Positions 1,985 through 55,256 of a stretch of 64,000 nt of DNA are shown piece after piece; positions within the stretch are counted from its first letter, which is position 1; each line of letters begins with the position of its first letter. Origin of the DNA: an uncultured Porphyromonadaceae bacterium (GTDB taxonomy: Bacteria; Bacteroidota; Bacteroidia; Bacteroidales; Coprobacteraceae). The stretch covers positions 8,153-72,152 of the forward strand of contig URAV01000003.1 of assembly GCA_900545915.1 (NCBI GenBank), written 5' to 3'. Under the pieces are notes generated by a model, which saw only the letters and a list, made by a program, of their open reading frames with translations, was not told the DNA's origin and did not search any database. A program made the position numbers and the translations under genes.

Positions 1985-3496
1985 TTAAATTCTCAAAACC
2001 CCCTTATGAATACCAAACGCCCTCCATCTACTAATCGGTCTATTATCCATTCTCCCCGTCACATTCTCCTCAAACCCCATCAAATAATCGATATAAGCCG
2101 CGATCATCGCTACTTCCTCACATGCCTCCTCCCGAGCAGGTTTACCTTCGAGAAGAAATTCCGAGTTATTGGCTATGAAGCCTGTATCATAACACCCCTT
2201 CACAAAATCCGGCGTATCCATAATCCTCCTCAAATAAGCAATATTACTCTTCACCCCCGTAATCTTATACTCAAACAACACCCTTCTCATCCTTTCAATC
2301 GCATACTCCCTACAAGTCGCCCACACGATCAACTTACCGATCATCGGATCATAAAATACGGGAATCTCATACCCCTCATACACATAACTATCCACCCTCA
2401 CTCCGATACCATTCGGTTCGGTAATTTGCTTGACAATTCCCGGAGCCGGTAAAAAATCAGCCTCTGTGTCTTCTGCGCAAATCCGGCACTCGATCGCGTG
2501 TCCTCTTTGTACAATATCTTCTTGTTTCAGTCTTAGCGGTCTGCCGTTTGCAATGTGAATCTGTTCCTTTACCAAATCGATACCCAATACCTCCTCCGTA
2601 ATCGGATGCTCCACTTGCAATCTCGTATTCATCTCAAGGAAAAAATAATTTCCGCTCCCGTCCACAAGAAACTCGATCGTTCCAGCCCCCACATAATTCA
2701 CCGCCTTAGCCGCGGCCACGGCTTTTTCACCCATCTCCCGTCTCAAGACCTCAGAAATAAAAGGCGAAGGCGTCTCCTCCACAATCTTCTGATTCCTTCT
2801 CTGCACCGAACATTCCCTCTCACAAAGATGGATCACGTTGCCGTGTTTATCACCCAGAATTTGGAACTCGATATGATGCGGATGCTCTACGAATTTCTCG
2901 ATATACACGGTATCATCCCCAAATGAAGTCAAAGATTCGGATTTAGCCGCCAGAAACGCCTCTTCGACCTCTTCAGGCTTTCTAGCCAACCTCATTCCCT
3001 TTCCACCTCCCCCGGCCGAAGCCTTCAACATCACCGGGTATCCGATACGATTGCACACCTCTATCGCCTCCACAGAAGAATTCAGATTTTCAGTCGTTCC
3101 GGGCACGACCGGCACACCCGCCTCCCTCATTCTCCTACGCGCAGAAATCTTATCCCCCATCACCACCATAGTCTCCGGCTCCGGTCCAATGAAAACAATT
3201 CCAGCATCATTACACCTTCTCGCAAACGCAGCATTCTCGGACAAGAACCCGTATCCAGGATGAATCGCATCCGCCCCGTGCTCGACCGCCACTTGAATAA
3301 TTTTGTCGATATTCAAATAACTCTCCCTAGCCTCAGCCGGACCGATACAATACGCCTCATCAGCATACATCACATGCCTGGCCGCCCTGTCGGCCTCAGA
3401 AAATACAGCTATTGTACGTATCTCCATCTCTTTGCACGAACGCATCACTCGCACGGCGATCTCGCCGCGATTGGCTACTAATATTTTCTTTATCAT
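1985..3496 (-). CDS. accC: biotin carboxylase (acetyl/propionyl-CoA carboxylase, ATP-grasp)
   Basis: MIKKILVANRGEIAVRVMRSC..., ATP-grasp glycine loop GGGGKGM, EMNTRLQVEHPITE; 503 aa. Confidence 0.9.
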   Translation of the reverse strand: MIKKILVANRGEIAVRVMRSCKEMEIRTIAVFSEADRAARHVMYADEAYCIGPAEARESYLNIDKIIQVAVEHGADAIHPGYGFLSENAAFARRCNDAGIVFIGPEPETMVVMGDKISARRRMREAGVPVVPGTTENLNSSVEAIEVCNRIGYPVMLKASAGGGGKGMRLARKPEEVEEAFLAAKSESLTSFGDDTVYIEKFVEHPHHIEFQILGDKHGNVIHLCERECSVQRRNQKIVEETPSPFISEVLRREMGEKAVAAAKAVNYVGAGTIEFLVDGSGNYFFLEMNTRLQVEHPITEEVLGIDLVKEQIHIANGRPLRLKQEDIVQRGHAIECRICAEDTEADFLPAPGIVKQITEPNGIGVRVDSYVYEGYEIPVFYDPMIGKLIVWATCREYAIERMRRVLFEYKITGVKSNIAYLRRIMDTPDFVKGCYDTGFIANNSEFLLEGKPAREEACEEVAMIAAYIDYLMGFEENVTGRMDNRPISRWRAFGIHKGVLRI

Positions 3497-4126
3497 TGTT
3501 TTCCTATTGATTATGTTGTTATAACATAGATTTTTAAAAAGTATGAAGAGTCACTCTCCGGTATTTCCCGGACAGAATTTGTATAAATATTTTGAATGAT
3601 TGTGTGATCGGACGTAAGAGTCTTGTAAATCGTCCAGTTCAGTAAAAACACATAAATAGTTATCCGCATTATCGGATTGGTTGATAAAAGAGATATCGCA
3701 TTGCGGACATATCTTTTTCATAAATGATAAAAATTGAAATCAATAATTTTTTCGTATCTACACTCTAACCCTCGAGAATGTAAACCTTTAATGAATGGCA
3801 GGTCTTCTGACTGACTCCCATTCTGAAGCCTTCCCGGTCATAAACCAGTGGCAAAGTTTTTTCAGAATGTTGAATAGAGCTTCACAGCAGCGGGACTGTT
3901 CGGGATTTGCACCCGATTCCCTTTTAATTTGCTTTTACGAAAAGGAAAAGCAAAACCAATTCTGCGGCAAATATAGGGATAAATTTTAATTTATGAGAAT
4001 ATGTAATGAAATATCAATGGCGGAATATAGCGTACGATATAACATTTATAGGACTTATTCCCTGATTATAAGGTTTATTTTTGAATTGATTTATGAATAT
4101 TTTTTGTCAAAAAAATTAGATAGACT

Positions 4127-5245
4127 CTACGATATTTTTCGTATATTTTTTTTCTTCTTTTTTCCCGGATCTTCTTTTAATATGTATTTTTGGTAATAAG
4201 CCAGAACGAGAGACGTGAGAGGAAGAGCTATAATCATGCCGATGACACCGAGCAGAGTTCCCCATATCGACAGAGATAAAAGTATAATTGCCGGATTTAA
4301 TCCTGTGACATGTCCCATGATGCGAGGGACGAGAATTATATCTTGAATTAACTGTACTATGATGAAAACAGCCATGCATGCTGCGAACAAAAGCCAGAAA
4401 TTTTGTCCCGATTCAGAGGCTTTTATCAAACATAACAAAACTGTCGGGATAACTCCGATGATTTGCAGATAAGGTACCATATTCAGTAGTCCGATAAATA
4501 ATCCCAATACGATAGCGAGGGGTAGTCCGACGATAAGAAATCCGATGCTGAAAAGAACGCCGACTAAAAAGGCAACGAGAGACTGACCTCTGAAATACCG
4601 ATTCATGCTTACTTGCACGTCGGTGAGTATCCCTAATACTGTTCTGCGGTAGCGGCGTGGAATGAGGCCTCGGAAGCCGACGATGATCTTTTCATAATCA
4701 AGCAGGATGAAAAAAAGATACAATAATACTATAAACCAGCTTATAATAGTGATAATCTGGTTTACCGACCCGGTAAGAAAAGACCATGCTTGGGTAACAG
4801 TTGTTTCGATCAATTTTTTCCAGTCTTCTTTGTTCATTATCTGTGCGATCTGCTCGAAATCGATTTTTTCCCGAATATAATCATGCCAACTTTCGGGAAT
4901 GAAAGGTATAGCATTATCCGTCGATATGTAATTATGAATAAGAATTTTCATTTTATCTATTTCCTCTATAATAGATGGTATGAAAATCCAGCCGAGCAAT
5001 CCGAAAAAAAGAATGACAGAAAGGAGGGTCGCTGAAATAGCTACTACCCGGTTTTTGATATGGCATTTATTATGAAAAAATTCTACGATCGGATGCATAA
5101 GGTAGGCCAGTAACCATGCAACAAGAAAAGGCAGAAGTGCACCTTTCAGCAAGTTTATCAAGTAAAAAGTCCCGATGAGAACTGCGATACTGAATATGAT
5201 TCGGGTAACCCGGTCGAAAGTATAAGGACGACGTGAAAGATACAT
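4127..5245 (-). CDS. AI-2E family transporter (PerM/YhhT-like, UPF0118) membrane protein
   Basis: Multi-pass hydrophobic protein with the characteristic layout and a lysine-rich C-terminal tail. Confidence 0.75.
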   Translation of the reverse strand: MYLSRRPYTFDRVTRIIFSIAVLIGTFYLINLLKGALLPFLVAWLLAYLMHPIVEFFHNKCHIKNRVVAISATLLSVILFFGLLGWIFIPSIIEEIDKMKILIHNYISTDNAIPFIPESWHDYIREKIDFEQIAQIMNKEDWKKLIETTVTQAWSFLTGSVNQIITIISWFIVLLYLFFILLDYEKIIVGFRGLIPRRYRRTVLGILTDVQVSMNRYFRGQSLVAFLVGVLFSIGFLIVGLPLAIVLGLFIGLLNMVPYLQIIGVIPTVLLCLIKASESGQNFWLLFAACMAVFIIVQLIQDIILVPRIMGHVTGLNPAIILLSLSIWGTLLGVIGMIIALPLTSLVLAYYQKYILKEDPGKKKKKNIRKIS

Positions 5246-5301: not shown

Positions 5302-5886
5302 CTATTCTTGCAATGTATGCTTTTTATTATAGCATGTGCGACAAAGTGGCTGATATTCTCCTTTTTCGCCTAATAAAACTCTTTTATCATTGTCTACGAG
5401 TCGGTGAGAATAATTTGCCAAATGTCCGCATTCTACGCAAATAGCATGAACTTTGGTCACTTCGTCGGCAATCGATAACAAATAAGGCATAGGTCCGAAA
5501 GGTATCTTTTTGAAGTCCATGTCTAATCCTGCTACGATAACCCGTGTTCCTTGATCGGCAAGCTGGTTGCAGATATCGACGATGCCCTGATCGAAAAATT
5601 GGGCCTCATCGATACCTACGACATCTACACCGCTTGATAATAGCAATATACTTGCAGAACTGTCTACCGGAGTCGATTGTATGGAGTTACTGTCATGGGA
5701 TACGATTTCTTCTTCCGAGTAACGTACATCGATAGACGGTTTGAAGATTTCGACTTTCTGACGAGCTATTTTTGCGCGTTTGAGCCGTCTTATCAATTCT
5801 TCGGTTTTTCCTGAAAACATCGATCCGCAAATTACTTCTATGCGTCCGCGTTTATGGGTTTCGTAGTTTTCTTCAGAAAATAACAT
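5302..5886 (-). CDS. tdk: thymidine kinase
   Basis: P-loop [15 protein letters not shown]-terminal zinc ribbon CVECG...CRTC; 194 aa. Confidence 0.9.
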
Positions 5887-5920
5887 TTTGATTCTCTTAT
5901 ATTAAATAGTTCAAGAAGTT

Positions 5921-6100
5921 TTAGAACCTGTCTGAATTTTCCAACAAAAAAATATTATCAGGTCATCTTTGCGTTTTCTTTCGGTCTTTTTCCCCGTTTT
6001 CCCTCGTCGGATAGCCCGCTATCCTCCTTGTAAAAACAGAAAAACATCCTCGAAAGAAACTCTCAAACCTGACCCGAGCAAAATTTAGACAGGCTCTTAT
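5921..6100 (+). repeat. MITE-like dispersed repeat, copy A (about 180 bp, imperfect terminal inverted repeats TTAGAACCTGTCTGAATTTT / AAATTTAGACAGGCTCTTAT)
   Basis: Same element recurs at 8115-8309 (reverse), 34366-34543, 37093-37273 (reverse). Diverged variants at 13544-13710 and 15410-15500. Fragments at 20588-20660 and 24716-24740. All intergenic. Confidence 0.8.
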
Positions 6101-6348
6101 ATCTTGAAACAAATGTACGACACTTTTTTATTTTTTTGAACTATCCGGTTCGAATTTACTTATATGACTTGTTCAAAATTATGAAAATGCTTTTAGAATA
6201 AGAGGGATAGCGGATTGCATAATGTACAGGAACAGGAAAATATCCTTATATATCTATTGTCGGAAAATTCAGATAAGGGCTAAAAATGAAACAAAATTGT
6301 ATATTCTTTGAAAATCGGTTATTTTTGTTTTAGAAATTATATCTTCTT

Positions 6349-7806
6349 ATGAATATATCTGTTATAAAATATCTTATTGTGTTCTTTTGGACGGGATTAT
6401 TCTCTTTTTCGCATGCCGAGACAGGTATATCTCGTTTTGTTTCTTTGCCGGAATTGCATTCAGCTTCGGTAGGTTTTTGTATTATGGATGTTGAAACGGG
6501 AGAAATAGTATCTTCTTATGACTCTCGGCGCTTACTTCTTCCGGCTTCGGCATTGAAGCTACTAACTTCGGCAACAGCTCTCGGAATATATGGGGGAGAA
6601 CATCGTTTTTATACCGATGTACAATATTCGGGACATATCGGTAAAGATAGTGTGCTTTATGGCGATTTATATATTCGGGGGTGCGGAGACCCAACATTAG
6701 GTTCGGAATATGGTACACGTCAGGTTTTTGATTTTCGAAATCGTTTGTTGAAAGAGCTTGAAAATGCAGGTATTCGTCGTATAGAAGGGAGCATTATTGC
6801 TGATGACAGCCGATTCGATACGGAAGGGGTTTCGCCGAAATGGTTGTGGGAAGATGTCGGGAATTATTTTGCAGCAGGTTGCTATGGCATTAATTATAGA
6901 GACAATACTTATCGTCTGACATTGCGTTCGGGAATAAAAGGTTCGATACCCGTTATTATCGGAGTAGAACCGGAAATACCCGGATTGAGTTTTTCTAATC
7001 ACCTTGTTTCGAGCAGTAATGCGATTGACAGTGCCTACATATACGGAGCTCCTTTTTCTTTACGGAGGTATATTTATGGGAGTATTCCGGAAAAACGGGA
7101 TCGTTTTGTCATAAAAGGTGATTTACCAGATCCCGCTTTGTTTTTTGTAAATGAAATAACGTCTTTTTTGAAAACTTCCCGAATCGAAGTGGTCGGTGCA
7201 CCTGTAACGATGCGTATATTGAATGAAGAAAAAAAAATAAAACCTTTACCAGATCGGTATGTGCTGTTTCGTTATTCTTCAGACCGTTTATCTGATATTA
7301 TTCGCATTGTAAATCATAACAGTAATAATTTATATGCTGAAACTTTATTGCGTTGGATCGCTTTGTCTCGTTATCCGGAAGCATCGGCATCGAAAGGTAT
7401 CGAGGTGTTGAAGCATTTTTGGAAAGAGAAAGGAGTGTTTCTGGATGATCTTGTTATGTACGACGGTAGCGGTTTGTCTCCGGTAAACCGTATCTCGGCC
7501 GCAATGTTGTGTCGGATACTTGCGGCTGTGGCTTCGGATAAAAATTCGCAGGCGGTATTTTATTCTTCGTTACCGTGTCCGGGAGTAAGTGGTACGGTAC
7601 GTTCATTTTTGAAAAATTCGTCTTTTTCGAAAAGAATGAGGTTGAAAAGCGGTAGTATGGCACATGTCCAAAGTTATGCAGGATATTATGATGCGGGAAA
7701 TAAAAAATATGCTGTGTCTGTCATTGTAAATAATTTCTCAGGCTCTCGTTCACATTTGCGTCGTGTGTTGGAACAGATGTTCGAGACAGAATTGAGATCG
7801 TTATAG
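6349..7806 (+). CDS. dacB: D-alanyl-D-alanine carboxypeptidase/endopeptidase, PBP4 family (peptidase S13)
   Basis: Signal peptide; SxxK (PASALKLLT), SxN (YDGSGLS) and KSG motifs; 485 aa. Confidence 0.8.
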   Translation: MNISVIKYLIVFFWTGLFSFSHAETGISRFVSLPELHSASVGFCIMDVETGEIVSSYDSRRLLLPASALKLLTSATALGIYGGEHRFYTDVQYSGHIGKDSVLYGDLYIRGCGDPTLGSEYGTRQVFDFRNRLLKELENAGIRRIEGSIIADDSRFDTEGVSPKWLWEDVGNYFAAGCYGINYRDNTYRLTLRSGIKGSIPVIIGVEPEIPGLSFSNHLVSSSNAIDSAYIYGAPFSLRRYIYGSIPEKRDRFVIKGDLPDPALFFVNEITSFLKTSRIEVVGAPVTMRILNEEKKIKPLPDRYVLFRYSSDRLSDIIRIVNHNSNNLYAETLLRWIALSRYPEASASKGIEVLKHFWKEKGVFLDDLVMYDGSGLSPVNRISAAMLCRILAAVASDKNSQAVFYSSLPCPGVSGTVRSFLKNSSFSKRMRLKSGSMAHVQSYAGYYDAGNKKYAVSVIVNNFSGSRSHLRRVLEQMFETELRSL

Positions 7807-8114
7807 GTTGAATCCTCAAAAAACAGAAAAATATTCTCAAAGCCGCCCCGAATAAAATTTAAATGGGATTTTAGAACCGTTTTTTATTCTTTATGAGAAA
7901 GTTTCCCTCATATGAACTTTTAACAATTTTATACCTCTGTCGGACAGAGTACTATTTTCTGATCGCATAGGTAAATCAAATCCGAAAACTTATCTTAAAT
8001 CATCATGTATGATAAAAGCAAACGGTTTCTTAATATTCAGAATATCGGTAAGATAAAAGATGTTTTGCTATATTTGTAAATTGTTAACCTTAAAAGGACT
8101 CTTGTAGGATAGTT

Positions 8115-8309
8115 TTAGAGCCTATCTGAATTTTGTTCGGGTCAGATTTGAGAGTTCCTTTCGAGTATGTTTTGTTGTTTTTACGAGGATGATAGTGGGG
8201 TATCTAATAAGTGAGAACAGGGAAACAAACCAGAAGAAAACGTAAAAATGACCTGATAATATTTTTTTGTTGGAAAATTCAGACGTACAAATGTACGACA
8301 GGCTCTTAA
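8115..8309 (-). repeat. MITE-like dispersed repeat, copy B (reverse orientation; 15-bp palindromic insertion GTACAAATGTAC in one TIR)
   Basis: About 85% identical to the reverse complement of copy A over about 180 bp. Confidence 0.8.
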
Positions 8310-8512
8310 AGTCTTCTTCTGAGAAATATATAATATAGGAAAAATCTGGTTTGATAATTTTTTAATTACTGAAGATATTTCATTGATAAATTCCGGTTTT
8401 TACCCTGTATTTACTTTTATTTTTATCATAAGAAGAACAAGAATTCATAATTTATTTGTCTGAATTCTTACGTTTTTTTGAATATTATTAGAAGAAATTA
8501 TTGGCCAACTCA

Positions 8513-8677
8513 CATGAACGTTTGTTAAAACGCAAATAATTTCTAACTTTGTAGTGTCGGAATTGGAGTAGAGACTTTTTATCCGACATACATGTTAGAG
8601 AAGCGTTTAGTTTTATCCTCGCTTTGAAAATCGCCAATTTTTAAAACATTGAAGGATAAACAGAACAAACGTTCATG
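8513..8677. promoter_or_regulatory. candidate invertible promoter (DNA switch): 14-bp perfect inverted repeats CATGAACGTTTGTT / AACAAACGTTCATG flanking a 137-bp segment that carries a Bacteroides-type promoter (TTTG, 19-bp gap, TAACTTTG)
   Basis: IRs read directly at 8513-8526 and 8664-8677. The IR core AAACGTTCAT matches 9 of 10 positions of ARACGTWCGT, which I recall as the Mpi-type Bacteroides invertible-promoter IR consensus. TAnnTTTG -7 element at 8544-8551 with TTTG at 8521-8524. About 420 bp upstream of a fimbrial operon. Confidence 0.35.
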
Positions 8678-9096
8678 CTTTTCCATTATAATCACGAGAG
8701 TGAATATATAAGGTTAGGCGTGGGTTGGCTGTTTATTTCAATGTGGGTGTTTGGCGATACCTCAAAGCGAGTAAACTGACAAATTCCCACGCTTTTTTTA
8801 TGTTTTGTTTTATCTTAAGTGAAACTGCTGATTTGGGGAATTTATGGCGAAAAATCTTTAGATCATGAAAATAGTTTTGTCATTTAAGATGAAGAGTCCG
8901 ATACATGGTTTGCATGGATTAGTTGTGGCAGTAAATTTTTTGATGAACTCTGTTGGTATCGTTAAAGCCCATACTTCTGGGAGTTATCTTAATAAATCTA
9001 TTTTTTAAATCCATCTTGTTATTATTAAAAATTAAGAAATGGCAAAAGCTTTAATTGCTTGTCATTTAGTCGAATCTATTATTATATAATTAAATT

Positions 9097-10371
9097 GTGA
9101 AAAGATATAAAAAAAGGTGGGTCTTATTGTTGATAACTGCATTATTTTTGTCGGGTATTGTATGGGCGCAGGAAACATCCGAGACTTTCACTTCGTGCTC
9201 GAATAAAGATTATCCTAATTATGTGATTTTTTTGTCAGATAAAAAAATCGATTCTGTTTTTTATTATGCCAATACTTCGATAGCACCAGTTATTTTTAAA
9301 GTGAATAAGCATAAATTGTATCCCAACAAACAGTTGGATAGTATTGCTGATATATTACGGCGAATACAACAAGATACTGTAATCCGTTTGTCGCATGTAT
9401 GGGTCGGAGGAAGTGCCTCACCAGAAGGACCTCCGAGTTGGAATTATCAATTAGGTGAGTATCGTTCTCGGGCTCTTGCCGATTTTTTGTTACAAGAAAC
9501 CGGTATTCCGGAAAGTAAACTTAAAGTTGAAAACCTTTGGGAAGATTGGTATTCGTTTGAAGTTGCATTGAAAAATGGAGCGCAAATTCCCAATAAAAGC
9601 AAGGTTCTTGATATTTTAGCAAAAGAGACTGATAATGAACGTCGTAAAAAACAAATTAAAGCTCTTGACGGAGGATATACTTGGCAACGGATTATTCGGA
9701 ATATATTTCCTCCGTTCAGGAATGCACGTATTGCCATTGTCTGTCAGGAAGAACAATTTCCTCTGCCTCCAGTATCAAAAAATTTACAAGTTGCAGAATT
9801 TCGCATGCCAGATTTGAATCCTGCTATTCCTTTTTCTTTACAACCGTCGCAACAAGAAAAATGGATAATTGCTATTAAGTCGAATTTATTGTTTGTTGCG
9901 GCATTGACTGCTAATTTGGGTATTGAAATTAGCCCGTGTTCCCATTGGTCTTTTGATTTACCGGTGTGGTATTCTCCATATAATATTACTTCGACGCGAA
10001 AGTTGCGTTTATTGGCGGTACAACCGGAAATACGTTGGTGGCCGAAAGAAACCATGAAAGGACATTTTATCGGTTTACATACCCATGTCGCCGGTTTTAA
10101 TGTGGCAATTAATAATCATGGTCGTTATCAAGATCCTAACCATGCTTTATGGGGAATGGGAATCAGTTATGGTTATGCTATCGATATCGGTAAAACGAAA
10201 AGATGGACTTTGGAATGTAATATAGGAGCAGGATTTGCTGAATTTGATTATGATGTTTACCGTAACTGGAAGAATGGTCCGAAATTTCGTTCGGGGTCAG
10301 ACTGGTATTGGGGTATAACGAGAGGAGGCGTTTCGATATCCTATAAATGGTATAAACAACGGAAAAGGTAA
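9097..10371 (+). CDS. OmpA-like/DUF3575 outer-membrane protein, first gene of a type V pilus-like operon (GTG start)
   Basis: Signal peptide, OmpA-C-like peptidoglycan-binding segment (GGSASPEGPPSWNYQLGEYRSRALADFL), then a DUF3575-like beta-rich C-terminal half. Operon context with a lipoprotein and a fimbrillin. Confidence 0.55.
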   Translation: MKRYKKRWVLLLITALFLSGIVWAQETSETFTSCSNKDYPNYVIFLSDKKIDSVFYYANTSIAPVIFKVNKHKLYPNKQLDSIADILRRIQQDTVIRLSHVWVGGSASPEGPPSWNYQLGEYRSRALADFLLQETGIPESKLKVENLWEDWYSFEVALKNGAQIPNKSKVLDILAKETDNERRKKQIKALDGGYTWQRIIRNIFPPFRNARIAIVCQEEQFPLPPVSKNLQVAEFRMPDLNPAIPFSLQPSQQEKWIIAIKSNLLFVAALTANLGIEISPCSHWSFDLPVWYSPYNITSTRKLRLLAVQPEIRWWPKETMKGHFIGLHTHVAGFNVAINNHGRYQDPNHALWGMGISYGYAIDIGKTKRWTLECNIGAGFAEFDYDVYRNWKNGPKFRSGSDWYWGITRGGVSISYKWYKQRKR

Positions 10372-13543: not shown

Positions 13544-13710
13544 TTAGAACCTGTTTAAAAATTCGGATAAAGCTTATTATCAGACTTTCTTTGAATTTCT
13601 CTTTCGGTCTGTTTTTTATTTGTCAGGGAAGCCACTATTATTTTAGTGAAAGCAGATAGATATTCTCGAAAGAAATTTTTAAATCCGATTAAATAGGAAC
13701 AGACTCTTAG
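13544..13710 (+). repeat. MITE-like repeat, diverged variant copy E
   Basis: Shares TTAGAACCTGTTTAAAA...TTTCTTTCGGTCT...CTCGAAAGAAA...AGGAACAGACTCTTAG with copy A. Confidence 0.6.
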
Positions 13711-15409: not shown

Positions 15410-15500
15410 TTAAGAGTCTGTCTGAATTTTCCGACAAAAAAGTATTTTCAGAAGAAATTTCCGAATCTGATATAGGGTAAATTTAGAACAGAATCTAAGA
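15410..15500 (+). repeat. MITE-like repeat, short variant copy F
   Basis: TTAAGAGTCTGTCTGAATTTTCCGACAAAAAAGTATT...AAATTTAGAACAGAATCTAAGA; has TIR-like ends but a truncated interior. Confidence 0.5.
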
Positions 15501-15589: not shown

Positions 15590-16888
15590 TTAATTTCGTT
15601 CCGGCATTTTTTTTGTCAGAGGCATCTCTTTTCGTAACATTTGAGTCGCTTTACCGGTGAGCCATAGATAATGGTCCGAAGGTTTTCCATCCATTCCGAT
15701 AAACTGGGATATTTTAGTTACAGGAGGTGTATCGGTACATTTAAATATCGCAGTGCCTTCGTCTATTTCATCAAACATAGCTACATAGATCATTTCTCCT
15801 CCGGCTTTCATGGCATTATACATTTGATCCCAGAAAAATTTCCCTCCTTGACGCGGTATCGAACCTGATGGTTTTATGTCATCGGGAAATTGAATCGTGC
15901 TTAAATTATGCCAACTAAAACCCGGAGTGACGCAAGGTACATAATCTATTTTGTTCTTTTTACACCATTGGATATCGGCTTTGGTCTCGTCATGATAACG
16001 GTCCATATCGTTATGTAATAGCGGAGTATAACGTTGTACGGTCCAAGGTAGTAATAAATCTGCTTTTTTGATTATTGTGTGCAGATAAGGATCATTGGTA
16101 CAATCGAAATTCAGATCGCGCCAAGCTGTAGGAACTCCCAGCATGACAGCGCAGCCTCCGTATACCGGATCATTTTGTAAGAAATCGATTAGTTTTTCTA
16201 TACCTATTTCGTTAACCTTGTATGGACGATCTGTAAATCCTAATCCCCATATTGCAACGACCGGTTTTTGGTTATGGTGCAGGTATGTTTTACTACCGTT
16301 TTGGTTCGTAACTTTTAGTTGATCGACCAGATATTTCCAGTCTTCAATAATAACCGAACAATCTTCTTTTTTGTGCCTTAATCCTGACAAGTCGTACATA
16401 ATCGCTATGGCTCGATCATATTTCGAAGCGGCGTCAAATGCATTTTTAAGAATGATATCAGGTAGTGATTGTTCACCCCTTCCTCGTGCGTAATCAAAGA
16501 AGCGTTGCATAAATACTCCGTCTATACCATATTCTTTCATCCATTTAAAATGGAGGTCTGTCGTGCTGATATCATAAGAGCTGAATATACGTGCCGTAGA
16601 TCCATCGGCATTTTTAAATTCTGTAGGATAAGTTTTTGAATATTCCCGTACATCAGGCCAAATATCTATATGGCAACTTCCATCTTTAAAACCGTTTTTA
16701 CCCGCCATGTGGCGGAATCCTCCGCTTTTACCATCTTCCGGAGTTCCGAACCAACCTTGATATCCCGCCATAATCATCCCTTTGTAACTTGGGTATTTGG
16801 TCTCTTTGGCATGTTTTGTTGCACCTTGCATGGTCGGGATCATAAGGTAAGAACACATTGCAAGAGTTAAAATTTTCAGCACTTTCAT
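15590..16888 (-). CDS. GH99-like glycoside hydrolase (endo-alpha-1,2-mannosidase family), paralog 1
   Basis: Signal peptide. Conserved MAGYQGWF near the N-terminus and MFDEIDEGTAIF near the C-terminus (E374-x-x-E377). This matches the ExxE catalytic pair I recall for GH99 (BxGH99 E333/E336, human MANEA E404/E407). About 55% identical to paralog 2 over the aligned N-terminal part. Confidence 0.5.
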   Translation of the reverse strand: MKVLKILTLAMCSYLMIPTMQGATKHAKETKYPSYKGMIMAGYQGWFGTPEDGKSGGFRHMAGKNGFKDGSCHIDIWPDVREYSKTYPTEFKNADGSTARIFSSYDISTTDLHFKWMKEYGIDGVFMQRFFDYARGRGEQSLPDIILKNAFDAASKYDRAIAIMYDLSGLRHKKEDCSVIIEDWKYLVDQLKVTNQNGSKTYLHHNQKPVVAIWGLGFTDRPYKVNEIGIEKLIDFLQNDPVYGGCAVMLGVPTAWRDLNFDCTNDPYLHTIIKKADLLLPWTVQRYTPLLHNDMDRYHDETKADIQWCKKNKIDYVPCVTPGFSWHNLSTIQFPDDIKPSGSIPRQGGKFFWDQMYNAMKAGGEMIYVAMFDEIDEGTAIFKCTDTPPVTKISQFIGMDGKPSDHYLWLTGKATQMLRKEMPLTKKMPERN

Positions 16889-20443: not shown

Positions 20444-21014
20444 AATGATTTATTTTTGTTAGTGTGTATTAAAAACTTTATTATTTTGATTTAATGATCA
20501 CAAAATAAAAGGGCAAGTATTAAGTAATCTCCTTTTTCGCGATTAAATTTGAACTAAAAAATTATTTATGCAGTTTTTAATTTATAATCTGCTTTGAGCT
20601 TGTCTAAATTTTCCGATAAGAAGATATTATCGAATTATTTTTGTGTTTTTCTGTTCTGATAAAAATTAAAAAATGTTTGCGAAAACAACTTCTAAAAAAA
20701 GTCTGTGCAAAAAATGATTCAAAAAAAGTTCGAGTATATGATTTTACTCAGAGCTGCTTTAAGAATTTCTTTATCGAAAAATTAAATAAGCTCTTAAATG
20801 TCACTTTTTATTGATTAATTTTTGTCCTAATGTGATATTAAGACCGATTTAAGGCATTATTAATCCAAAATTTAAGATTGAGTATTTTTCTTTGCATTTT
20901 GTAGTAATGCATGGGAAACATCATCTGTTTTTGATCATTTTTCAGATTTGTAGGGTATTCCGGATTATTTAGAAAACACTAAATATAAACATCTTCAAAT
21001 AAATAATAACTAAT

Positions 21015-24776: not shown

Positions 24777-26003
24777 ATGAAGAAAACTTTTTGCATCCTG
24801 TTGGGGATACTTGTTTTTTGTTCTGTCGGGGTTGAGGCCAAAAAGAGGTATTCTTCTTATAAGGGATTGGTAATGGCCGGGTATCAAGGTTGGTTTAATA
24901 CTCCAGATGACGGTGCTGACCGAAAGTGGAGACACTATCCCGGAAGGCAGGGATTTAAACCCGGTTCTTGCAGTATAGATATGTGGCCTGATGTCAGCGA
25001 ATATGAGAAAGTGTATCCTACTTCATTTAGTTTTGCTGACGGGAGTGTTGCTAAAGTATTCAGTTCTCACGATGAATCAACGGTAGATACCCATTTTCGT
25101 TGGATGAAGGAGTACGGTTTAGATGGGGTTTTTATGCAACGATTTGTAGGAGAAGTGAAAAATCCTTCGGGGAAAAATCATTTTAATAAGGTTTTGGCTT
25201 CGGCTACAAAAGCTGCCGATAAATATGATCGTGCAATTTGTGTCATGTATGATCTTAGCGGGATGAAAGGAACGGACGCATCGTTTGTTCTGGATGATAT
25301 AGATGAACTCACCCGTTTGTTTAATATCGGAAATCGGAAAAAGAATCCTTCTTATTTGTTCCATAACGGTAAGCCTCTTGTCGTGATTTGGGGAGTGGGA
25401 TTTAATGATCGCCGCAGATATACTACTGAAGATGTCGAGCTGATTGTTGATGGACTCAAAAAACGAGGTTTTAGTGTAATGTTGGGAGTTCCTACTTATT
25501 GGAGAGAATTGAGGTCTGATACGGAGAATAATCCGAAACTTCATGAATTGATTCGTAAAAGCGATATTATAATGCCTTGGTTCGTTGGACGCTATAATGA
25601 CCGGAGTTTTGAGAAGTTCAAGCATTTAGTTTCTGAAGATATTGCTTGGTGTAAAAGCAATAAGATAGATTATGCACCTTTGGTTTTTCCCGGATTTTCA
25701 TGGAAGAATATGAAAGGCATGAACAGCCATTCTACACCGAGAAACAGAGGCCAGTTTTTATGGGATCAAATGTATAATGCCGTAAGTTCCGGAGCTGAAA
25801 TGATTTATGTAGCTATGTTTGATGAAATGGATGAGGGCACGGCCATATTTAAATGTGCGACAAAAGTACCGATTGGAGAATCTGTTTTTGTCCCGATTGA
25901 GGAGGGCTTGTCGAGTGACCATTATTTATGGTTGGTGGGACAGGGAAAAAAGATGTTGAAAAATCCGAAAGGCTTTTCTTCTGATCTTCCGGCCAGAAAA
26001 TGA
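24777..26003 (+). CDS. GH99-like glycoside hydrolase, paralog 2
   Basis: YKGLVMAGYQGWF...YVAMFDEMDEGTAIFKC; paralogous to 15590-16888. Confidence 0.5.
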   Translation: MKKTFCILLGILVFCSVGVEAKKRYSSYKGLVMAGYQGWFNTPDDGADRKWRHYPGRQGFKPGSCSIDMWPDVSEYEKVYPTSFSFADGSVAKVFSSHDESTVDTHFRWMKEYGLDGVFMQRFVGEVKNPSGKNHFNKVLASATKAADKYDRAICVMYDLSGMKGTDASFVLDDIDELTRLFNIGNRKKNPSYLFHNGKPLVVIWGVGFNDRRRYTTEDVELIVDGLKKRGFSVMLGVPTYWRELRSDTENNPKLHELIRKSDIIMPWFVGRYNDRSFEKFKHLVSEDIAWCKSNKIDYAPLVFPGFSWKNMKGMNSHSTPRNRGQFLWDQMYNAVSSGAEMIYVAMFDEMDEGTAIFKCATKVPIGESVFVPIEEGLSSDHYLWLVGQGKKMLKNPKGFSSDLPARK

Positions 26004-34365: not shown

Positions 34366-34543
34366 TAAGAGTCTCTTTGAATTTTCCAATAAGGAAAATA
34401 TTATCAGATCATCTTAGCGTTTTTTTCGGTCTTTTTTCCCGTTTTCCCTTGTCGGACAGCCCGCTATCCTCCTCGTGAAAAAGAAAAACATCCACGAAAG
34501 AAAATCTCAAACCTGACCCGAGTAAAATTGAGACAGGCTTTAA
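34366..34543 (+). repeat. MITE-like dispersed repeat, copy C
   Basis: Near-identical to copy A (TTAAGAGTCTCTTTGAATTTTCCAATAAGGAAAATATTATCAGATCATCTTAGCG...GAGTAAAATTGAGACAGGCTTTAAG). Confidence 0.8.
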
Positions 34544-37092: not shown

Positions 37093-37273
37093 TAAGAGCC
37101 TGCCTGAATTTTGTTCAGGTCTGGATTAGAGTTTTTTTCGAGGATATTTTATTGCTTTTACGAGGAATATCGCGGGCTATCTGACGAGAGAAAGCGGGAA
37201 AACAGGCTTGAAGAAAACGTGACAATGATTTGATAATATTTTTTTTGATTGAAAGATTTAAACAGGTTCTAAA
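37093..37273 (-). repeat. MITE-like dispersed repeat, copy D (reverse orientation)
   Basis: TTTAAGAGCCTGCCTGAATTTTGTTCAGGTCTGGATTAGAG...GATTGAAAGATTTAAACAGGTTCTAAA; homologous to copy B. Confidence 0.75.
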
Positions 37274-52892: not shown

Positions 52893-55256
52893 ATGAAAAG
52901 ATGTTTACTCTTATCTGCTCTATTGTGTGTTTTTTCTATTGCACATATGTATGCAGAAACTACTACGCCTTCTATTACATTGACTACGACTAAGACTGAT
53001 GTGATAGAAATGAAATTTGGTTGTAGAACAGCTCATACGATTCATATTGATTGGGGAGATGGAAAACTTGTCGAAACGGTAGAAATTGCCGATTCAGCGA
53101 CCGTTTATCCGACAGCTTCTTCTGCAGCAATTCATCCTACTGTTGTTACTGGAACTCCTGTAAATGGTGGAAAAATAAAGATTTATGCAGATGATATTAA
53201 GTTTTTTGTTATTGATACAGATCAACAGATTACTGAATTGGATGTAACGGGGGCAACAAATTTGGGATATATTAAAGTTAATGATAACAGTTTTACGACA
53301 ATTGATTTATCGAAAAATAATCAGTTAGAATATGTGAATCTTGACGATAATAAACTTGAAACCCTTACTTTGGGAGATGCTCCTAATTTGACGCAACTTT
53401 TGGCAAGCGGTATGTCGATAGCCAAGATCAAGCTGACCGGATGTCCCAGTCTTACCAATGTAAATCTTGCAGATAATAAAATTACTACGATCGATGTAAG
53501 CGCTAATACTAAAATGACGTCATTAGCGTTAACGAATAATCTTTTGACTGATATCGACTGTTCAATGTGTGAAAGTTTAAAATTCCTTCGGTTGTCAGGG
53601 AATAGATTCGCTGCTGCAAATTCGGTAATTTTCCCGACATCGAGTGCCAATTTAACACAAGTTCTGTTGAAAGATAATTATTTTAAATTATCTACTTTGC
53701 CTGTTACGAAAGCTAAATCTTATACTTATTATCCGCAAAATCCGTATCCATCGCCTAAAGAAATAGCATTAGGGGGAACAGTAGATCTTTCATCCGAATT
53801 GACATTACAGGGATTATCCGATAAAGAAGAAACAACTACTTATAGGTGGATAAAGAAGGAAGACAATACGGTTTTAACATCCGGAACGGATTATACTGAA
53901 GTCAGTGCGGGTGTCTTTAAGTTTGATAAAGAGTTATCGGATACGATTTATTGTGTAATGTCAACTAATGCATTCCCTAAATTTACAGGTACTGCAAATT
54001 CTTACAAGACAGATCTTTCGGTAGTTGCTACAGAAGCTGCAATTACATTAAATACTACAAAAGTCGAAGAAGTGGAATTACAGCTTGGTTGTGCTACCGG
54101 GCATAAAGTGTTCATTGATTGGGGAGATGGGATTCCGGTAGAAACTGTAGAAATAAATGACTCTCTTGCGGTTTTCGGACAAAATACCATGAAACCGACT
54201 GAGTTAACGGGCACTTCGAAAGGAACGATAAAGATATATGCCAATGATGCCCTGTTTTTCGGTGCAGATGGGCAAGAGGTTACTTCTGTAGATGTGGCGA
54301 AAGCCGTTCAATTGGGAGTTCTTAAAGTTCCGACTAATAAATTGAAAGAATTGGATGTTACGAACAATGAAGAATTATATTATATCTATGCAGAAGAGAA
54401 TGAATTATCTGTTTTAGATGTAACTCACTGCCCGAAATTATTTTGGTTGTCTGCAAATGGGAATAGCCTCGAAAGTATAGATTTGACCGCTTGTCCGGAT
54501 CTATATAATTTGAATTTAAGCGAAAACCTGTTGTCAAGTATCGATCTTTCGGTATGTAATGATTTAGGGCCATGTCGATTAAGTAGCAATAATTTGGAGG
54601 AAATAATTATGCCGAGTGAAGGGGTTGCTCCTACAACGACATTGGATGTGAAAAATAATAAACTGACAATTTCTACTCTTCCTGAGAAAACTTTAGGAAT
54701 GTCTTCAGCAAGTCGTCTTACTTATGCACCTCAAGCACCTTATGTGTTGCCGAAAGATATTACTGCCGGAACGGTTGTCGATCTTTCTTCCGAATTGAAG
54801 GCTTTCGGGGTGTCGGATAAAGAAGAGACTACGACATATACGTGGCGTTTGAAGACAGCCGGAACAGCATTGCAAAAAGATGTGGATTATACAGAAAAAG
54901 ACGGTGTGTTCACATTTACCGGAACTGAACTTGCTGATAGTGTGTATTGCGTTATGGCAACGGCGGCTTATCCTAAATTTACGGGTACTGCAAATATGTT
55001 TAAAACAACAAATGTTCACATTACTGTTCCTGCAGGAGTAGACGAAAATACAGTAAGCGGTAGAATCATAACTACCGGAAACGGCTTGATTAAAGTGTTG
55101 AATGCCGAAAATAATGATATGATCGAGGTATTCTCTTTGAATGGAGCTTTGGTAACAATGCGTAAGGCGTCCGAAAATGTAGAAACTATAAAAGTCATAC
55201 CGGGTTCATATATTGTTAAAATCGGTAATAAACGGTGTTCGGTAATAGTTCCGTAA
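52893..55256 (+). CDS. leucine-rich-repeat surface protein with two tandem about 380-aa modules and a T9SS C-terminal sorting domain
   Basis: Signal peptide. LRR units (LxxLDVTxNxL...). Module 1 (HIDWGDGKLVETVEIADS...YKTDLSVVATEAAI) repeated as module 2 (FIDWGDGIPVETVEINDS...FKTTNVHITVPAGV). C-terminal about 70 aa beta-sandwich CTD. Confidence 0.65.
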   Translation: MKRCLLLSALLCVFSIAHMYAETTTPSITLTTTKTDVIEMKFGCRTAHTIHIDWGDGKLVETVEIADSATVYPTASSAAIHPTVVTGTPVNGGKIKIYADDIKFFVIDTDQQITELDVTGATNLGYIKVNDNSFTTIDLSKNNQLEYVNLDDNKLETLTLGDAPNLTQLLASGMSIAKIKLTGCPSLTNVNLADNKITTIDVSANTKMTSLALTNNLLTDIDCSMCESLKFLRLSGNRFAAANSVIFPTSSANLTQVLLKDNYFKLSTLPVTKAKSYTYYPQNPYPSPKEIALGGTVDLSSELTLQGLSDKEETTTYRWIKKEDNTVLTSGTDYTEVSAGVFKFDKELSDTIYCVMSTNAFPKFTGTANSYKTDLSVVATEAAITLNTTKVEEVELQLGCATGHKVFIDWGDGIPVETVEINDSLAVFGQNTMKPTELTGTSKGTIKIYANDALFFGADGQEVTSVDVAKAVQLGVLKVPTNKLKELDVTNNEELYYIYAEENELSVLDVTHCPKLFWLSANGNSLESIDLTACPDLYNLNLSENLLSSIDLSVCNDLGPCRLSSNNLEEIIMPSEGVAPTTTLDVKNNKLTISTLPEKTLGMSSASRLTYAPQAPYVLPKDITAGTVVDLSSELKAFGVSDKEETTTYTWRLKTAGTALQKDVDYTEKDGVFTFTGTELADSVYCVMATAAYPKFTGTANMFKTTNVHITVPAGVDENTVSGRIITTGNGLIKVLNAENNDMIEVFSLNGALVTMRKASENVETIKVIPGSYIVKIGNKRCSVIVP

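What the first reader, a model, noticed from the sequence alone, without database searches (positions are those of the whole stretch)
5921..6100. Dense MITE-like repeat family with 20-bp terminal inverted repeats, at least five full copies in 64 kb
An approximately 180-bp element with imperfect TIRs (consensus roughly TAAGARCCTGTCTRAATTT, TIR-L and TIR-R match at about 16 of 19 positions) and a comparatively GC-rich interior (GGATAGCCCGCTATCC hairpin) recurs at 5921-6100 (+), 8115-8309 (-), 34366-34543 (+) and 37093-37273 (-). Diverged variants sit at 13544-13710 and 15410-15500. All copies are intergenic and often lie between divergent or convergent genes. Copy B carries a 15-bp palindromic insertion (GTACAAATGTAC) inside one TIR. 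No transposase is visible in the window, which fits a non-autonomous miniature element that may also donate promoters or terminators.
Basis: seen in the sequence. Interest (0 to 1): 0.6.

Follow-up and report, generated by a model that had tools for sequence, protein, structure and literature searches.

The report
Coprobacter MITE mobilised by IS5-family transposase
The repeat is a real 173-bp non-coding "jumping" DNA element (a MITE) of an uncultured gut Coprobacter species. It copies a TTA/TAA target on insertion and shares its ends with an IS5-family insertion sequence found beside copies in other samples, so it is a new example of a well-known kind of selfish DNA.

Summary
The window, from an uncultured Coprobacter sp., holds four full 172-188-bp copies (A-D), three diverged or truncated copies (E-G) and one fragment. 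All are intergenic.

- **Anatomy.** The element ends in 17-bp inverted repeats, GAGCCTGTCTRAATTTT, not about 20 bp.
- **Duplication.** Across unique sites in the window and metagenomes, 28 have identical TWA flanks and 3 have unlike ones (p = 2e-6).
- **Empty site.** In the sister species Coprobacter secundus, the tdk-PBP4 spacer equals the window sequence minus copy A and one TTA.
- **Partner.** An 898-bp IS5-family insertion sequence (IS1031-like, 251-aa transposase) has the same 17-bp ends. It lies directly beside a MITE copy in metagenome contigs. None is present in the window.
- **Age.** Copies A, B, E and F are fixed in 10 conspecific strains, and most transposase copies are decayed, so the family looks old.

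The one unusual feature is that the whole element is a long hairpin that folds well on only one strand: G·U pairs are tolerated and A·C pairs are not, and compensatory changes occur. The cause is unknown. Verdict: a new member of a known kind, of modest interest.

The parts
5924..6096 (+). Copy A, 173 bp and full length. It is flanked by a TTA duplication (5921-5923 and 6097-6099) and sits 35 nt upstream of the tdk start codon.
   Evidence: E = 8e-57. There is a precise empty site in Coprobacter secundus L014...AAGAAGTTTTA|TATCTTGAAAC....
8118..8305 (-). Copy B, 188 bp (173 bp plus a 15-nt insertion). TAA duplication at 8306-8308 and 8115-8117.
   Evidence: E = 7e-45.
8285..8299 (-). 15-nt palindromic insertion GTCGTACATTTGTAC inside the left terminal repeat of copy B, bounded by a GTC repeat.
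   Evidence: Present in the window, L001, L004 and L009; absent in L006, L007 and L010. It forms a small terminator-like hairpin.
34369..34540 (+). Copy C, 172 bp. TAA duplication at 34366-34368 and 34541-34543. It lies 105 nt upstream of the Kelch-repeat gene start (minus strand).
   Evidence: E = 3e-47.
37096..37269 (-). Copy D, 174 bp. TTA duplication at 37270-37272 and 37093-37095. It lies downstream of the GH3 gene and that gene's terminator-like hairpin.
   Evidence: E = 2e-41.
13547..13706 (+). Copy E, 160 bp and diverged. TTA duplication at 13544-13546 and 13707-13709.
   Evidence: E = 1e-16. Present in all 10 strains.
15414..15495 (+). Copy F, 82 bp. Both ends are kept and about 90 bp of the interior is deleted. 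TAA duplication at 15411-15413 and 15496-15498.
   Evidence: left end, E = 1e-4.
20596..20793 (+). Copy G, about 198 bp and degenerate. The left end GAGCTTGTCTAAATTTTCC is clear. The right end ...AAATAAGCTC|TTA was assigned by eye. Flanks are TTT and TTA.
   Evidence: family D2/D3; 20596-20650, E = 1e-7.
7814..7867 (+). Fragment matching the right half of the element (profile positions 103-170), directly after the PBP4 stop codon.
   Evidence: E = 2e-4.

Best explanation
The repeats are copies of a 173-bp non-autonomous transposable element (a MITE).

**Shown**
- Each copy is bounded by 17-bp terminal inverted repeats, GAGCCTGTCTRAATTTT.
- The element has inserted at TWA (TTA or TAA) sites and duplicated those 3 bp.
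- It has no coding capacity.
- The same terminal sequences bound an 898-bp IS5-family insertion sequence. That IS is IS1031-like and encodes a 251-aa DDE transposase with DUF4096, DDE_Tnp_1 and DDE_Tnp_1_2 domains.
- Intact copies of this IS lie directly next to MITE copies in Coprobacter-type metagenome contigs.
- Other IS copies are frameshifted or truncated relics.

**Inferred**
- That transposase bound the MITE ends and moved the element in trans by cut-and-paste into AT-rich intergenic DNA.
- The family expanded in this Coprobacter lineage after it split from C. secundus.
- It is now largely fossil: copies are 68-92% identical to copy A and are fixed among strains.
- The interior is a long imperfect palindrome unrelated to the IS.
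- Where a copy lies in a transcript, it would add a roughly 170-nt hairpin to that RNA. Copy A sits between a candidate tdk promoter box and the tdk start codon.
For: 1. **Terminal repeats.** 9 matches in the window against 0.05 expected.
2. **Duplication.** All six copies A-F have identical 3-bp flanks. Over de-duplicated sites from the window and metagenomes, 28 are identical and 3 are unlike, binomial p = 2.3e-6. If the inverted repeat simply ran 3 bp further out, unlike flanks (TTA paired with TAA) would be the rule.
3. **Empty site.** C. secundus L014, and also L018, has a 171-bp tdk-PBP4 spacer that reads across the junction with a single TTA.
4. **Spread.** 64 of 120 metagenome loci carry copies at many different genomic sites, next to housekeeping genes such as ffh, MatE and PHO4.
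5. **Partner IS.** L156 126-1023 has left end GAGCCTGTCTAAATTTC and right end GAGGCTGTCTAAATTTT; the L141 right end is GAGCCTGTCTAAATTTT.
   - Transposases P0121 and P0306 match NCBIfam NF033580 (IS5 family) at 208 bits and Pfam DUF4096, DDE_Tnp_1 and DDE_Tnp_1_2.
   - A MITE copy abuts the IS in L156, L158 and L159.
   - MITE positions 1-35 match IS positions 1-32 at 80%, and the right 17 nt match at 94-100%.
6. **Names.** Members of the transposase cluster are named as coming from "uncultured Coprobacter sp.", as is the window's tdk.
7. **Relatives.** Related ISs L143 (856 bp) and L147 (855 bp) have the same ends.
8. **Published parallel.** The IS1031 subgroup gives 3-bp TNA duplications. 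ISLrh (857 bp) has 17-bp repeats GAACCTGTCTAGTATCT, identical to this element's end over the first 11 nt (PMC12016507).
Against: - No transposase lies in the window, and I could not show an intact IS in the very genome the window comes from. The link rests on shared names and on adjacency in other samples.
- The two related full-length ISs on long contigs (L143, L147) have unlike flanks, TTA/TAA and TAA/TTA. The 3-bp duplication is therefore shown for the MITE and not for the IS itself.
- Only one clean empty site was found. At sites C and D the C. secundus sequence is not collinear with the window.
- No presence/absence difference was seen among 10 conspecific strains, so there is no sign of current activity.
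- The interior of the element has no similarity to the IS, so its origin is unknown.
- A scan of 185,579 species-representative genomes with a 27-nt pattern from the element's right end (overlapping the right terminal repeat) found no true copy. This is unexplained.
Confidence: 0.9

Rival explanations
1. It is a MITE that is also kept, or was amplified, because one strand folds. The bottom-strand hairpin would act as an RNA element in UTRs (processing, stability or termination), or as a single-stranded DNA fold that favours mobilisation. This adds to the best explanation rather than replacing it.
For: - As RNA, the top strand gives no consensus structure (-0.5 kcal/mol). The bottom strand gives a 53-pair hairpin (-29.5 kcal/mol).
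- All 27 copies fold better on the bottom strand, mean -57.9 against -38.4 kcal/mol.
- With strand-symmetric pair geometry the consensus has 6 G·U pairs and no A·C pair. Variants present in at least 4 copies are G·U at 16 pairs and A·C at 2.
- 16 pairs carry changes on both sides, against 6.9 +/- 1.9 in shuffles and 3-9 in slid controls.
- Copy A lies just downstream of a TAnnTTTG box (6117-6110, minus strand). It would therefore be transcribed in the folding orientation within the tdk leader (inference from the published Bacteroides promoter consensus, recalled from my own knowledge).
Against: - Rare variants (1-3 copies), which are mostly post-insertion, show no bias: 30 G·U against 40 A·C. 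There is thus no sign of host-level purifying selection.
- Orientation between co-directional genes is 13 sense to 7 antisense, which is not significant.
- The copies share ancestry, so the counts are not independent events.
- Mutation bias in a few master copies could give the same pattern.
- No expression data were available.
Confidence: 0.2
2. It is a family of structured non-coding RNA genes or cis-regulatory leaders, present once per operon and not mobile.
For: The predicted fold is strong (z = -7 to -8). Several copies lie upstream of genes: A before tdk, C before the Kelch-repeat gene, G before the GH2 gene.
Against: - No Rfam family matches.
- Copy A is a precise insertion with a duplication, relative to the sister species.
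- The flanking genes are unrelated to one another.
- Copies occur in both orientations and in convergent spacers.
- The ends are shared with an IS.
Confidence: 0.02
3. It is an invertible DNA switch (an "inverton"): a segment bounded by inverted repeats that a site-specific recombinase flips to switch a promoter.
For: The size (about 170 bp), the flanking inverted repeats and the intergenic position next to surface-protein and glycan-use genes resemble Bacteroidales invertible promoters (my own knowledge).
Against: - All four copies compared in 10 strains are in the same orientation.
- There is a direct TWA duplication and an empty site.
- No recombinase gene lies nearby.
- The interior is itself palindromic, so flipping it would change little.
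Confidence: 0.02

Closest known systems
IS1031 subgroup of the IS5 family (for example ISLrh of Lacticaseibacillus rhamnosus, PMC12016507)
   Same: - The partner IS is 855-898 bp and has 17-bp terminal repeats.
- The repeats begin GAGCCTGTCTA or GAACCTGTCTG; ISLrh has GAACCTGTCTAG.
- The target is TNA with a 3-bp duplication.
- The transposase matches the IS5-family model NF033580.
   Different: - The window holds only the 173-bp derivative, which has no coding capacity.
- The target seen here is restricted to TTA or TAA.
- The transposase is a single 251-aa ORF, whereas ISLrh uses two ORFs joined by a frameshift.
- Subgroup membership was not tested against ISfinder.
Porphyromonas gingivalis MITEs (BrickBuilt, MITEPgRS/MITE464, MITE239, MITE700; PMC4596501, PMC2575886)
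   Same: They are Bacteroidales MITEs, strictly intergenic, with about 10-20 copies per genome. Their terminal repeats match resident IS5-family elements and their interiors are unrelated to the IS.
   Different: - Their terminal repeats differ (GAGACCTTTGCA or ACGTCAGTTCGA, 12 nt).
- Their duplications are irregular or unclear.
- BrickBuilt carries a minisatellite, whereas this element is one long hairpin.
- There is no sequence similarity between the families.
Tourist MITEs / PIF-Harbinger superfamily of eukaryotes (PMC4482050)
   Same: They make a 3-bp TWA target-site duplication and their transposases are related to IS5. Their repeats begin GGCC/GGGCCTGTTTG-like, which resembles GAGCCTGTCTG; this point is recalled from memory and was not tested.
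   Different: They are eukaryotic, and their autonomous partner needs a second, Myb-like protein. The similarity reflects the shared IS5/PIF chemistry and not membership.
Correia elements of Neisseria and other hairpin-forming bacterial MITEs (ERIC, RUP; review PMC10969869)
   Same: They are short, have terminal repeats, are intergenic, fold into long hairpins when transcribed and can alter expression of neighbouring genes (plus my own knowledge).
   Different: Correia elements duplicate TA, carry an IHF site and have documented promoters. None of these was found or tested here.

Membership tests
MITE (prokaryotic miniature inverted-repeat transposable element) | Short (about 50-1000 bp) with no transposase coding capacity | tested here: met
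   The consensus is 173 bp. No ORF of 80 aa or more overlaps any copy.
MITE (prokaryotic miniature inverted-repeat transposable element) | Terminal inverted repeats | tested here: met
   The ends are 17 bp, GAGCCTGTCTRAATTTT. There are 9 matches in the window against 0.05 expected. They are conserved in 27 aligned copies.
MITE (prokaryotic miniature inverted-repeat transposable element) | Target-site duplication | tested here: met
   The duplication is TTA/TTA or TAA/TAA. Flanks are identical at 28 sites and unlike at 3, p = 2e-6.
MITE (prokaryotic miniature inverted-repeat transposable element) | Multiple dispersed copies at unrelated sites | tested here: met
   The window holds 7 copies and a fragment. 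Metagenome loci add 42 unique full sites.
MITE (prokaryotic miniature inverted-repeat transposable element) | Insertion polymorphism with a precise empty site | tested here: met
   Site A is empty in C. secundus L014-L017 and in L018. Only this one clean case was found. No polymorphism was seen within the species.
MITE (prokaryotic miniature inverted-repeat transposable element) | An autonomous element with matching ends in the same organisms | tested here: met
   The IS at L156 126-1023 lies next to a MITE copy. Its ends match the MITE ends at 16-17 of 17 positions. It was not shown in the window's own genome.
MITE (prokaryotic miniature inverted-repeat transposable element) | Mobilisation in trans by that transposase | not testable with these tools
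   This needs a transposition or binding assay.
IS5 family, IS1031 subgroup (the partner IS) | DDE transposase of the IS5 family | tested here: met
   NF033580 scores 208 bits against a cut-off of 110. Pfam finds DUF4096, DDE_Tnp_1 and DDE_Tnp_1_2.
IS5 family, IS1031 subgroup (the partner IS) | Length about 850-1050 bp, TNA target and 3-bp direct repeat | tested here: inconclusive
   The lengths, 855-898 bp, fit. The 3-bp TWA duplication is shown for the MITE. The IS copies seen have unlike flanks or sit among other copies.
IS5 family, IS1031 subgroup (the partner IS) | Transposase groups with IS1031 reference elements in ISfinder | not testable with these tools
   ISfinder was not available. 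The only support is the similarity of the ends to ISLrh, 11 of the first 12 nt.
Rfam structured RNA family | Match to a curated covariance model | tested here: not met
   There is no match over the copies at the gathering threshold or at E <= 10.

The most novel reading that the evidence does not exclude
The element is more than selfish DNA. Its roughly 170-nt hairpin is selected on one specific strand: G·U pairs are tolerated, A·C pairs are purged, and compensatory changes occur.

One possible reason is that an IS5-family transposase mobilises it best when that strand folds back. The other is that the transcribed hairpin acts as a portable RNA module for stability, processing or termination, which Coprobacter has spread through the leaders and trailers of many genes, including tdk.
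Probability: 0.15. Interest if true: 0.55.

Novelty: new member of a known kind. Interest (0 to 1): 0.3.

Why it matters
- **Annotation and assembly.** It explains a dense intergenic repeat in a common but uncultured human-gut Coprobacter. It provides a consensus, exact boundaries and a target rule (TWA) that can be used for annotation, for strain typing and for avoiding misassembly.
- **A matched pair.** It pairs a MITE with its likely IS5-family partner in Bacteroidales. Until now only the Porphyromonas gingivalis MITEs had been described in this order, in the literature I could search.
- **Genome plasticity.** Copies sit at the edges of blocks that differ between Coprobacter species, and one sits in the leader of tdk. 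The family may therefore contribute to rearrangement and to differences in expression.
- **An open question.** The one-strand bias of the hairpin is a small, testable puzzle about what shapes MITE interiors.

Tried and rejected
- **Rfam**, at the gathering threshold over the whole window and at E <= 10 over 5850-8400. It found only a cobalamin riboswitch elsewhere and chance hits.
- **Scan of species-representative genomes** with a 27-nt pattern from the element's right end (overlapping the right terminal repeat). The three hits all lie in coding sequence and are chance matches, two of them in Firmicutes.
- **Viral contigs, plasmids and phages.** No match.
- **Search for a parent IS between pairs of terminal repeats 350-4000 bp apart** in the metagenome loci. 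The pairs only enclosed housekeeping genes flanked by two MITEs: endonuclease, PHO4, MatE.
- **A recurrent "left end" seen in 17 loci.** It proved to be one genomic site holding a decayed, internally deleted IS.
- **The L141 contig.** It seemed to show an aberrant left end. L156-L159 showed that the contig simply starts 38 nt inside the IS.
- **P0299, a "253-aa intact transposase".** It is a truncated relic at the same site as L088.
- **Empty sites for copies C and D in C. secundus.** The flanks are not collinear, so no conclusion is possible.
- **Possible remnants at 4096-4127 and 6237-6273.** Their local alignment scores (24) fall within the range of shuffles (20 +/- 2.5, maximum 31), so they are not claimed.
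- **Orientation bias relative to co-directional genes.** 13 to 7, not significant.
- **Promoter and terminator scans.** Nothing above background. These scans do not model Bacteroidetes promoters.

Full report

Yes. Repeat finding, alignment and a profile search all recover the four full copies:
- A: 5924-6096 (+)
- B: 8118-8305 (-)
- C: 34369-34540 (+)
- D: 37096-37269 (-)

They also recover the two diverged copies, E (13547-13706) and F (15414-15495).

The terminal motif occurs 9 times in the window against 0.05 expected by chance. The apical GGATAGCCCGCTATCC hairpin and the insertion in copy B are as described. No copy overlaps an ORF. Rfam has no family for the element.

**2. Exact anatomy**

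Reading the ends of all copies shows that the element begins GAGCCTGTCTRAATTTT and ends with the reverse complement, AAAATTYAGACAGGCTC. That is a 17-bp inverted repeat.

The 3 bp outside each end are the same on both sides of a copy: TTA/TTA for A, D and E, and TAA/TAA for B, C and F. This distinguishes two readings. If the inverted repeat simply ran 3 bp further out, TTA would face TAA. A target-site duplication gives identical triplets.

After removing duplicate sites from the metagenome copies and adding the window copies, 28 sites have identical TWA flanks and 3 have unlike ones, p = 2.3e-6. Two of the unlike cases found before de-duplication simply abut another copy (L119, L122).

**3. 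Proof of insertion**

The window comes from an uncultured Coprobacter sp.; its tdk product is WP_297930468.1.

In the sister species Coprobacter secundus ("Tannerella sp. AF04-6", PBP4 89% identical), the tdk-PBP4 spacer is 171 bp instead of 462 bp. It reads ...GTTCAAGAAGTTTTA|TATCTTGAAACAAATGTACGA.... The window reads ...GTTCAAGAAGTTTTA[GAACCTG...CAGGCTC TTA]TATCTTGAAACAAATGTACGA.... This is a precise empty site with a single TTA. A more distant relative, L018, is also empty there.

Within the species, copies A, B, E and F are present in all 10 strains fetched, at 90-100% identity. These insertions are therefore old and fixed.

For copies C and D, the C. secundus loci carry no copy. Their flanks are not collinear with the window, however, so no clean empty site can be read.

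**4. Spread**

- 64 of these loci carry recognisable copies (68-92% identical to A), mostly on human-gut contigs. Flanking genes on two loci checked, L088 and L112, are named Coprobacter.
- 42 unique full sites were extracted.
- The neighbouring genes checked are ordinary housekeeping genes.

Loci of related species that were chosen through proteins rather than through the repeat carry few or no copies. L014 has one degenerate copy, and L018, L020 and L152-L155 have none. This points to a lineage-specific expansion.

A scan of species-representative genomes with a 27-nt pattern from the element's right end (overlapping the right terminal repeat) gave only chance hits. I cannot explain this.

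**5. The autonomous partner**

Among the loci that matched the end motif without a MITE body, L088 showed the motif at the 3' end of a frameshifted IS5-family transposase gene.

A search with the repaired protein found intact 251-aa versions: P0121 (97% identical) and P0306, from the same 90%-identity cluster. Their contigs give the whole element.
- **Coordinates.** L156 126-1023, 898 bp.
- **Ends.** The left end is GAGCCTGTCTAAATTTC. The right end is GAGGCTGTCTAAATTTT, or GAGCCTGTCTAAATTTT in L141.
- **Neighbour.** A MITE copy lies immediately to the left, separated by TAA.

The transposase matches NCBIfam NF033580 (IS5 family, 208 bits) and Pfam DUF4096, DDE_Tnp_1 and DDE_Tnp_1_2. Related ISs (66-67% identical protein) on long contigs have the same ends: L143 1909-2764 and L147 1769-2623.

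The MITE shares positions 1-35 with the IS left end (80% identity) and the last 17 nt with the right end. The interior is unrelated to the IS.

Most members of the transposase cluster are fragments from "uncultured Coprobacter sp.", forming a fixed relic next to a corrinoid adenosyltransferase gene (L088, L151). No transposase is present in the window.

Published work states that IS1031-subgroup elements insert at TNA with a 3-bp repeat. ISLrh (857 bp) has 17-bp ends, GAACCTGTCTAGTATCT (PMC12016507). All of this fits what is seen here.

**6. How it most likely works**

Shown: the ends, the duplication, the insertion, the co-occurring IS with matching ends, and the absence of coding capacity.

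Inferred: the IS5-family transposase recognised the 17-bp ends and moved the element in trans by cut-and-paste into TWA sites in AT-rich spacers. The family has since mostly gone quiet.

Caveats:
- The IS copies on long contigs have unlike flanks.
- The intact IS was not shown in the window's own genome.

**7. The one unusual feature**

The whole element is a long imperfect palindrome, but it folds well on only one strand.
- RNAalifold gives no structure for the top strand (-0.5 kcal/mol) and a 53-pair hairpin for the bottom strand (-29.5 kcal/mol).
- Each of the 27 copies folds better on the bottom strand, mean -57.9 against -38.4 kcal/mol.
- With pairs defined symmetrically for both strands, the consensus has 6 G·U pairs and no A·C pair.
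- Variants shared by at least 4 copies are G·U at 16 pairs and A·C at 2.
- Rare variants show no bias: 30 G·U against 40 A·C.
- Pairs with changes on both sides number 16, against 6.9 +/- 1.9 in shuffles and 3-9 in slid controls.

The hairpin was therefore maintained during the family's amplification, on one strand. There is no sign of selection after insertion, and orientation relative to co-directional genes is not significantly biased (13 to 7).

Copy A sits just downstream of a TAnnTTTG box and 35 nt before the tdk start codon. tdk mRNA probably carries it in the folding orientation. This is an inference from the published Bacteroides promoter consensus, recalled from my own knowledge.

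**8. Comparison and novelty**

MITEs with IS5-family ends are already known in Bacteroidales, in the form of the Porphyromonas gingivalis elements BrickBuilt, MITEPgRS, MITE239 and MITE700 (PMC4596501). MITEs in general are reviewed in PMC10969869. The TWA duplication parallels eukaryotic Tourist and PIF-Harbinger elements, whose transposases are related to IS5 (PMC4482050).

I found no paper on a Coprobacter MITE, and the element has no similarity to plasmid or phage records.

It is a new member of a known kind: useful for annotation, modestly interesting, with a small open question about the strand-specific hairpin.

Noticed in passing
window 3780-3975 (-): A cobalamin riboswitch (Rfam RF00174, 106 bits, E = 1e-25) lies upstream of the biotin carboxylase / carboxyl-transferase genes (1985-3496 and onward, minus strand).
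   Followed up: no
window 8285-8299 (-), inside copy B: A 15-nt insertion, GTCGTACATTTGTAC, is bounded by a GTC repeat. It is present in some conspecific strains and absent in others (L006, L007, L010). It creates a TAnnTTTG-like box and a small hairpin followed by a T-rich tail. Its origin is unknown; a transposon footprint or replication slippage are possibilities.
   Followed up: partly
window 8.1-15.5 kb and 7.8-34.8 kb, compared with L018 and L020: MITE copies lie at synteny breaks between Coprobacter species.
- The block holding the DUF3575 gene, two DUF6562 genes and the alkaline phosphatase gene lies between copies B and F. It is absent in L018.
- In L020, PBP4 is followed directly by the GH3 gene that in the window lies after copy C.
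   Followed up: partly
window 8390-9097, compared with L014 11750-12541: The spacer upstream of the DUF3575 (fimbria-like) gene is about 99% identical to C. secundus. The adjacent PBP4 protein is only 89% identical. This suggests recent exchange of this surface-structure locus, with the boundary near copy B.
   Followed up: no
window about 6150-6300: A second stretch of about 115 bp in the tdk-PBP4 spacer is absent from C. secundus. It contains a weak end-like motif, GGAAAATTCAGATAAGGGCT, but its similarity to the MITE is not above chance. It may be a decayed older insertion.
   Followed up: partly
window 15737-15863 / 25730-25856, 16500-16587 / 25057-25144, 16730-16787 / 24857-24914: These inverted repeats (72-81% identical) reflect two paralogous GH99-like genes in opposite orientation, 15590-16888 (-) and 24777-26003 (+). 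They flank the two large GH2-type genes.
   Followed up: no
window 53810-54995: Direct repeats spaced exactly 996 bp apart lie inside the ORF 52893-55256, which points to an internal domain duplication in that protein.
   Followed up: no
L142 1730-1905; L119 about 1416-1753; L122 from about 4511: Nested or tandem arrangements occur.
- In L142 a MITE abuts a 5'-truncated transposase gene exactly at the TTA of codon 6.
- In L119 and L122 two MITEs lie back to back and share one TTA.
- In L156 the intact IS lies between a MITE and another end-like sequence.
   Followed up: partly
L025, L036, L054, L062, L097 and 12 further loci: In a common gut bacterium, one genomic site holds a decayed, internally deleted IS of the same group. 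Its left end, GAGCCTGTCTGAATTTTCCA, is identical to the MITE left end. Some strains carry a further truncation.
   Followed up: partly
Genome-contig scan: A 27-nt pattern that matches window copies A-D found no true copy in 185,579 species-representative genomes, although metagenome contigs hold many copies. This is unexplained; the representative Coprobacter assemblies may lack these regions.
   Followed up: no
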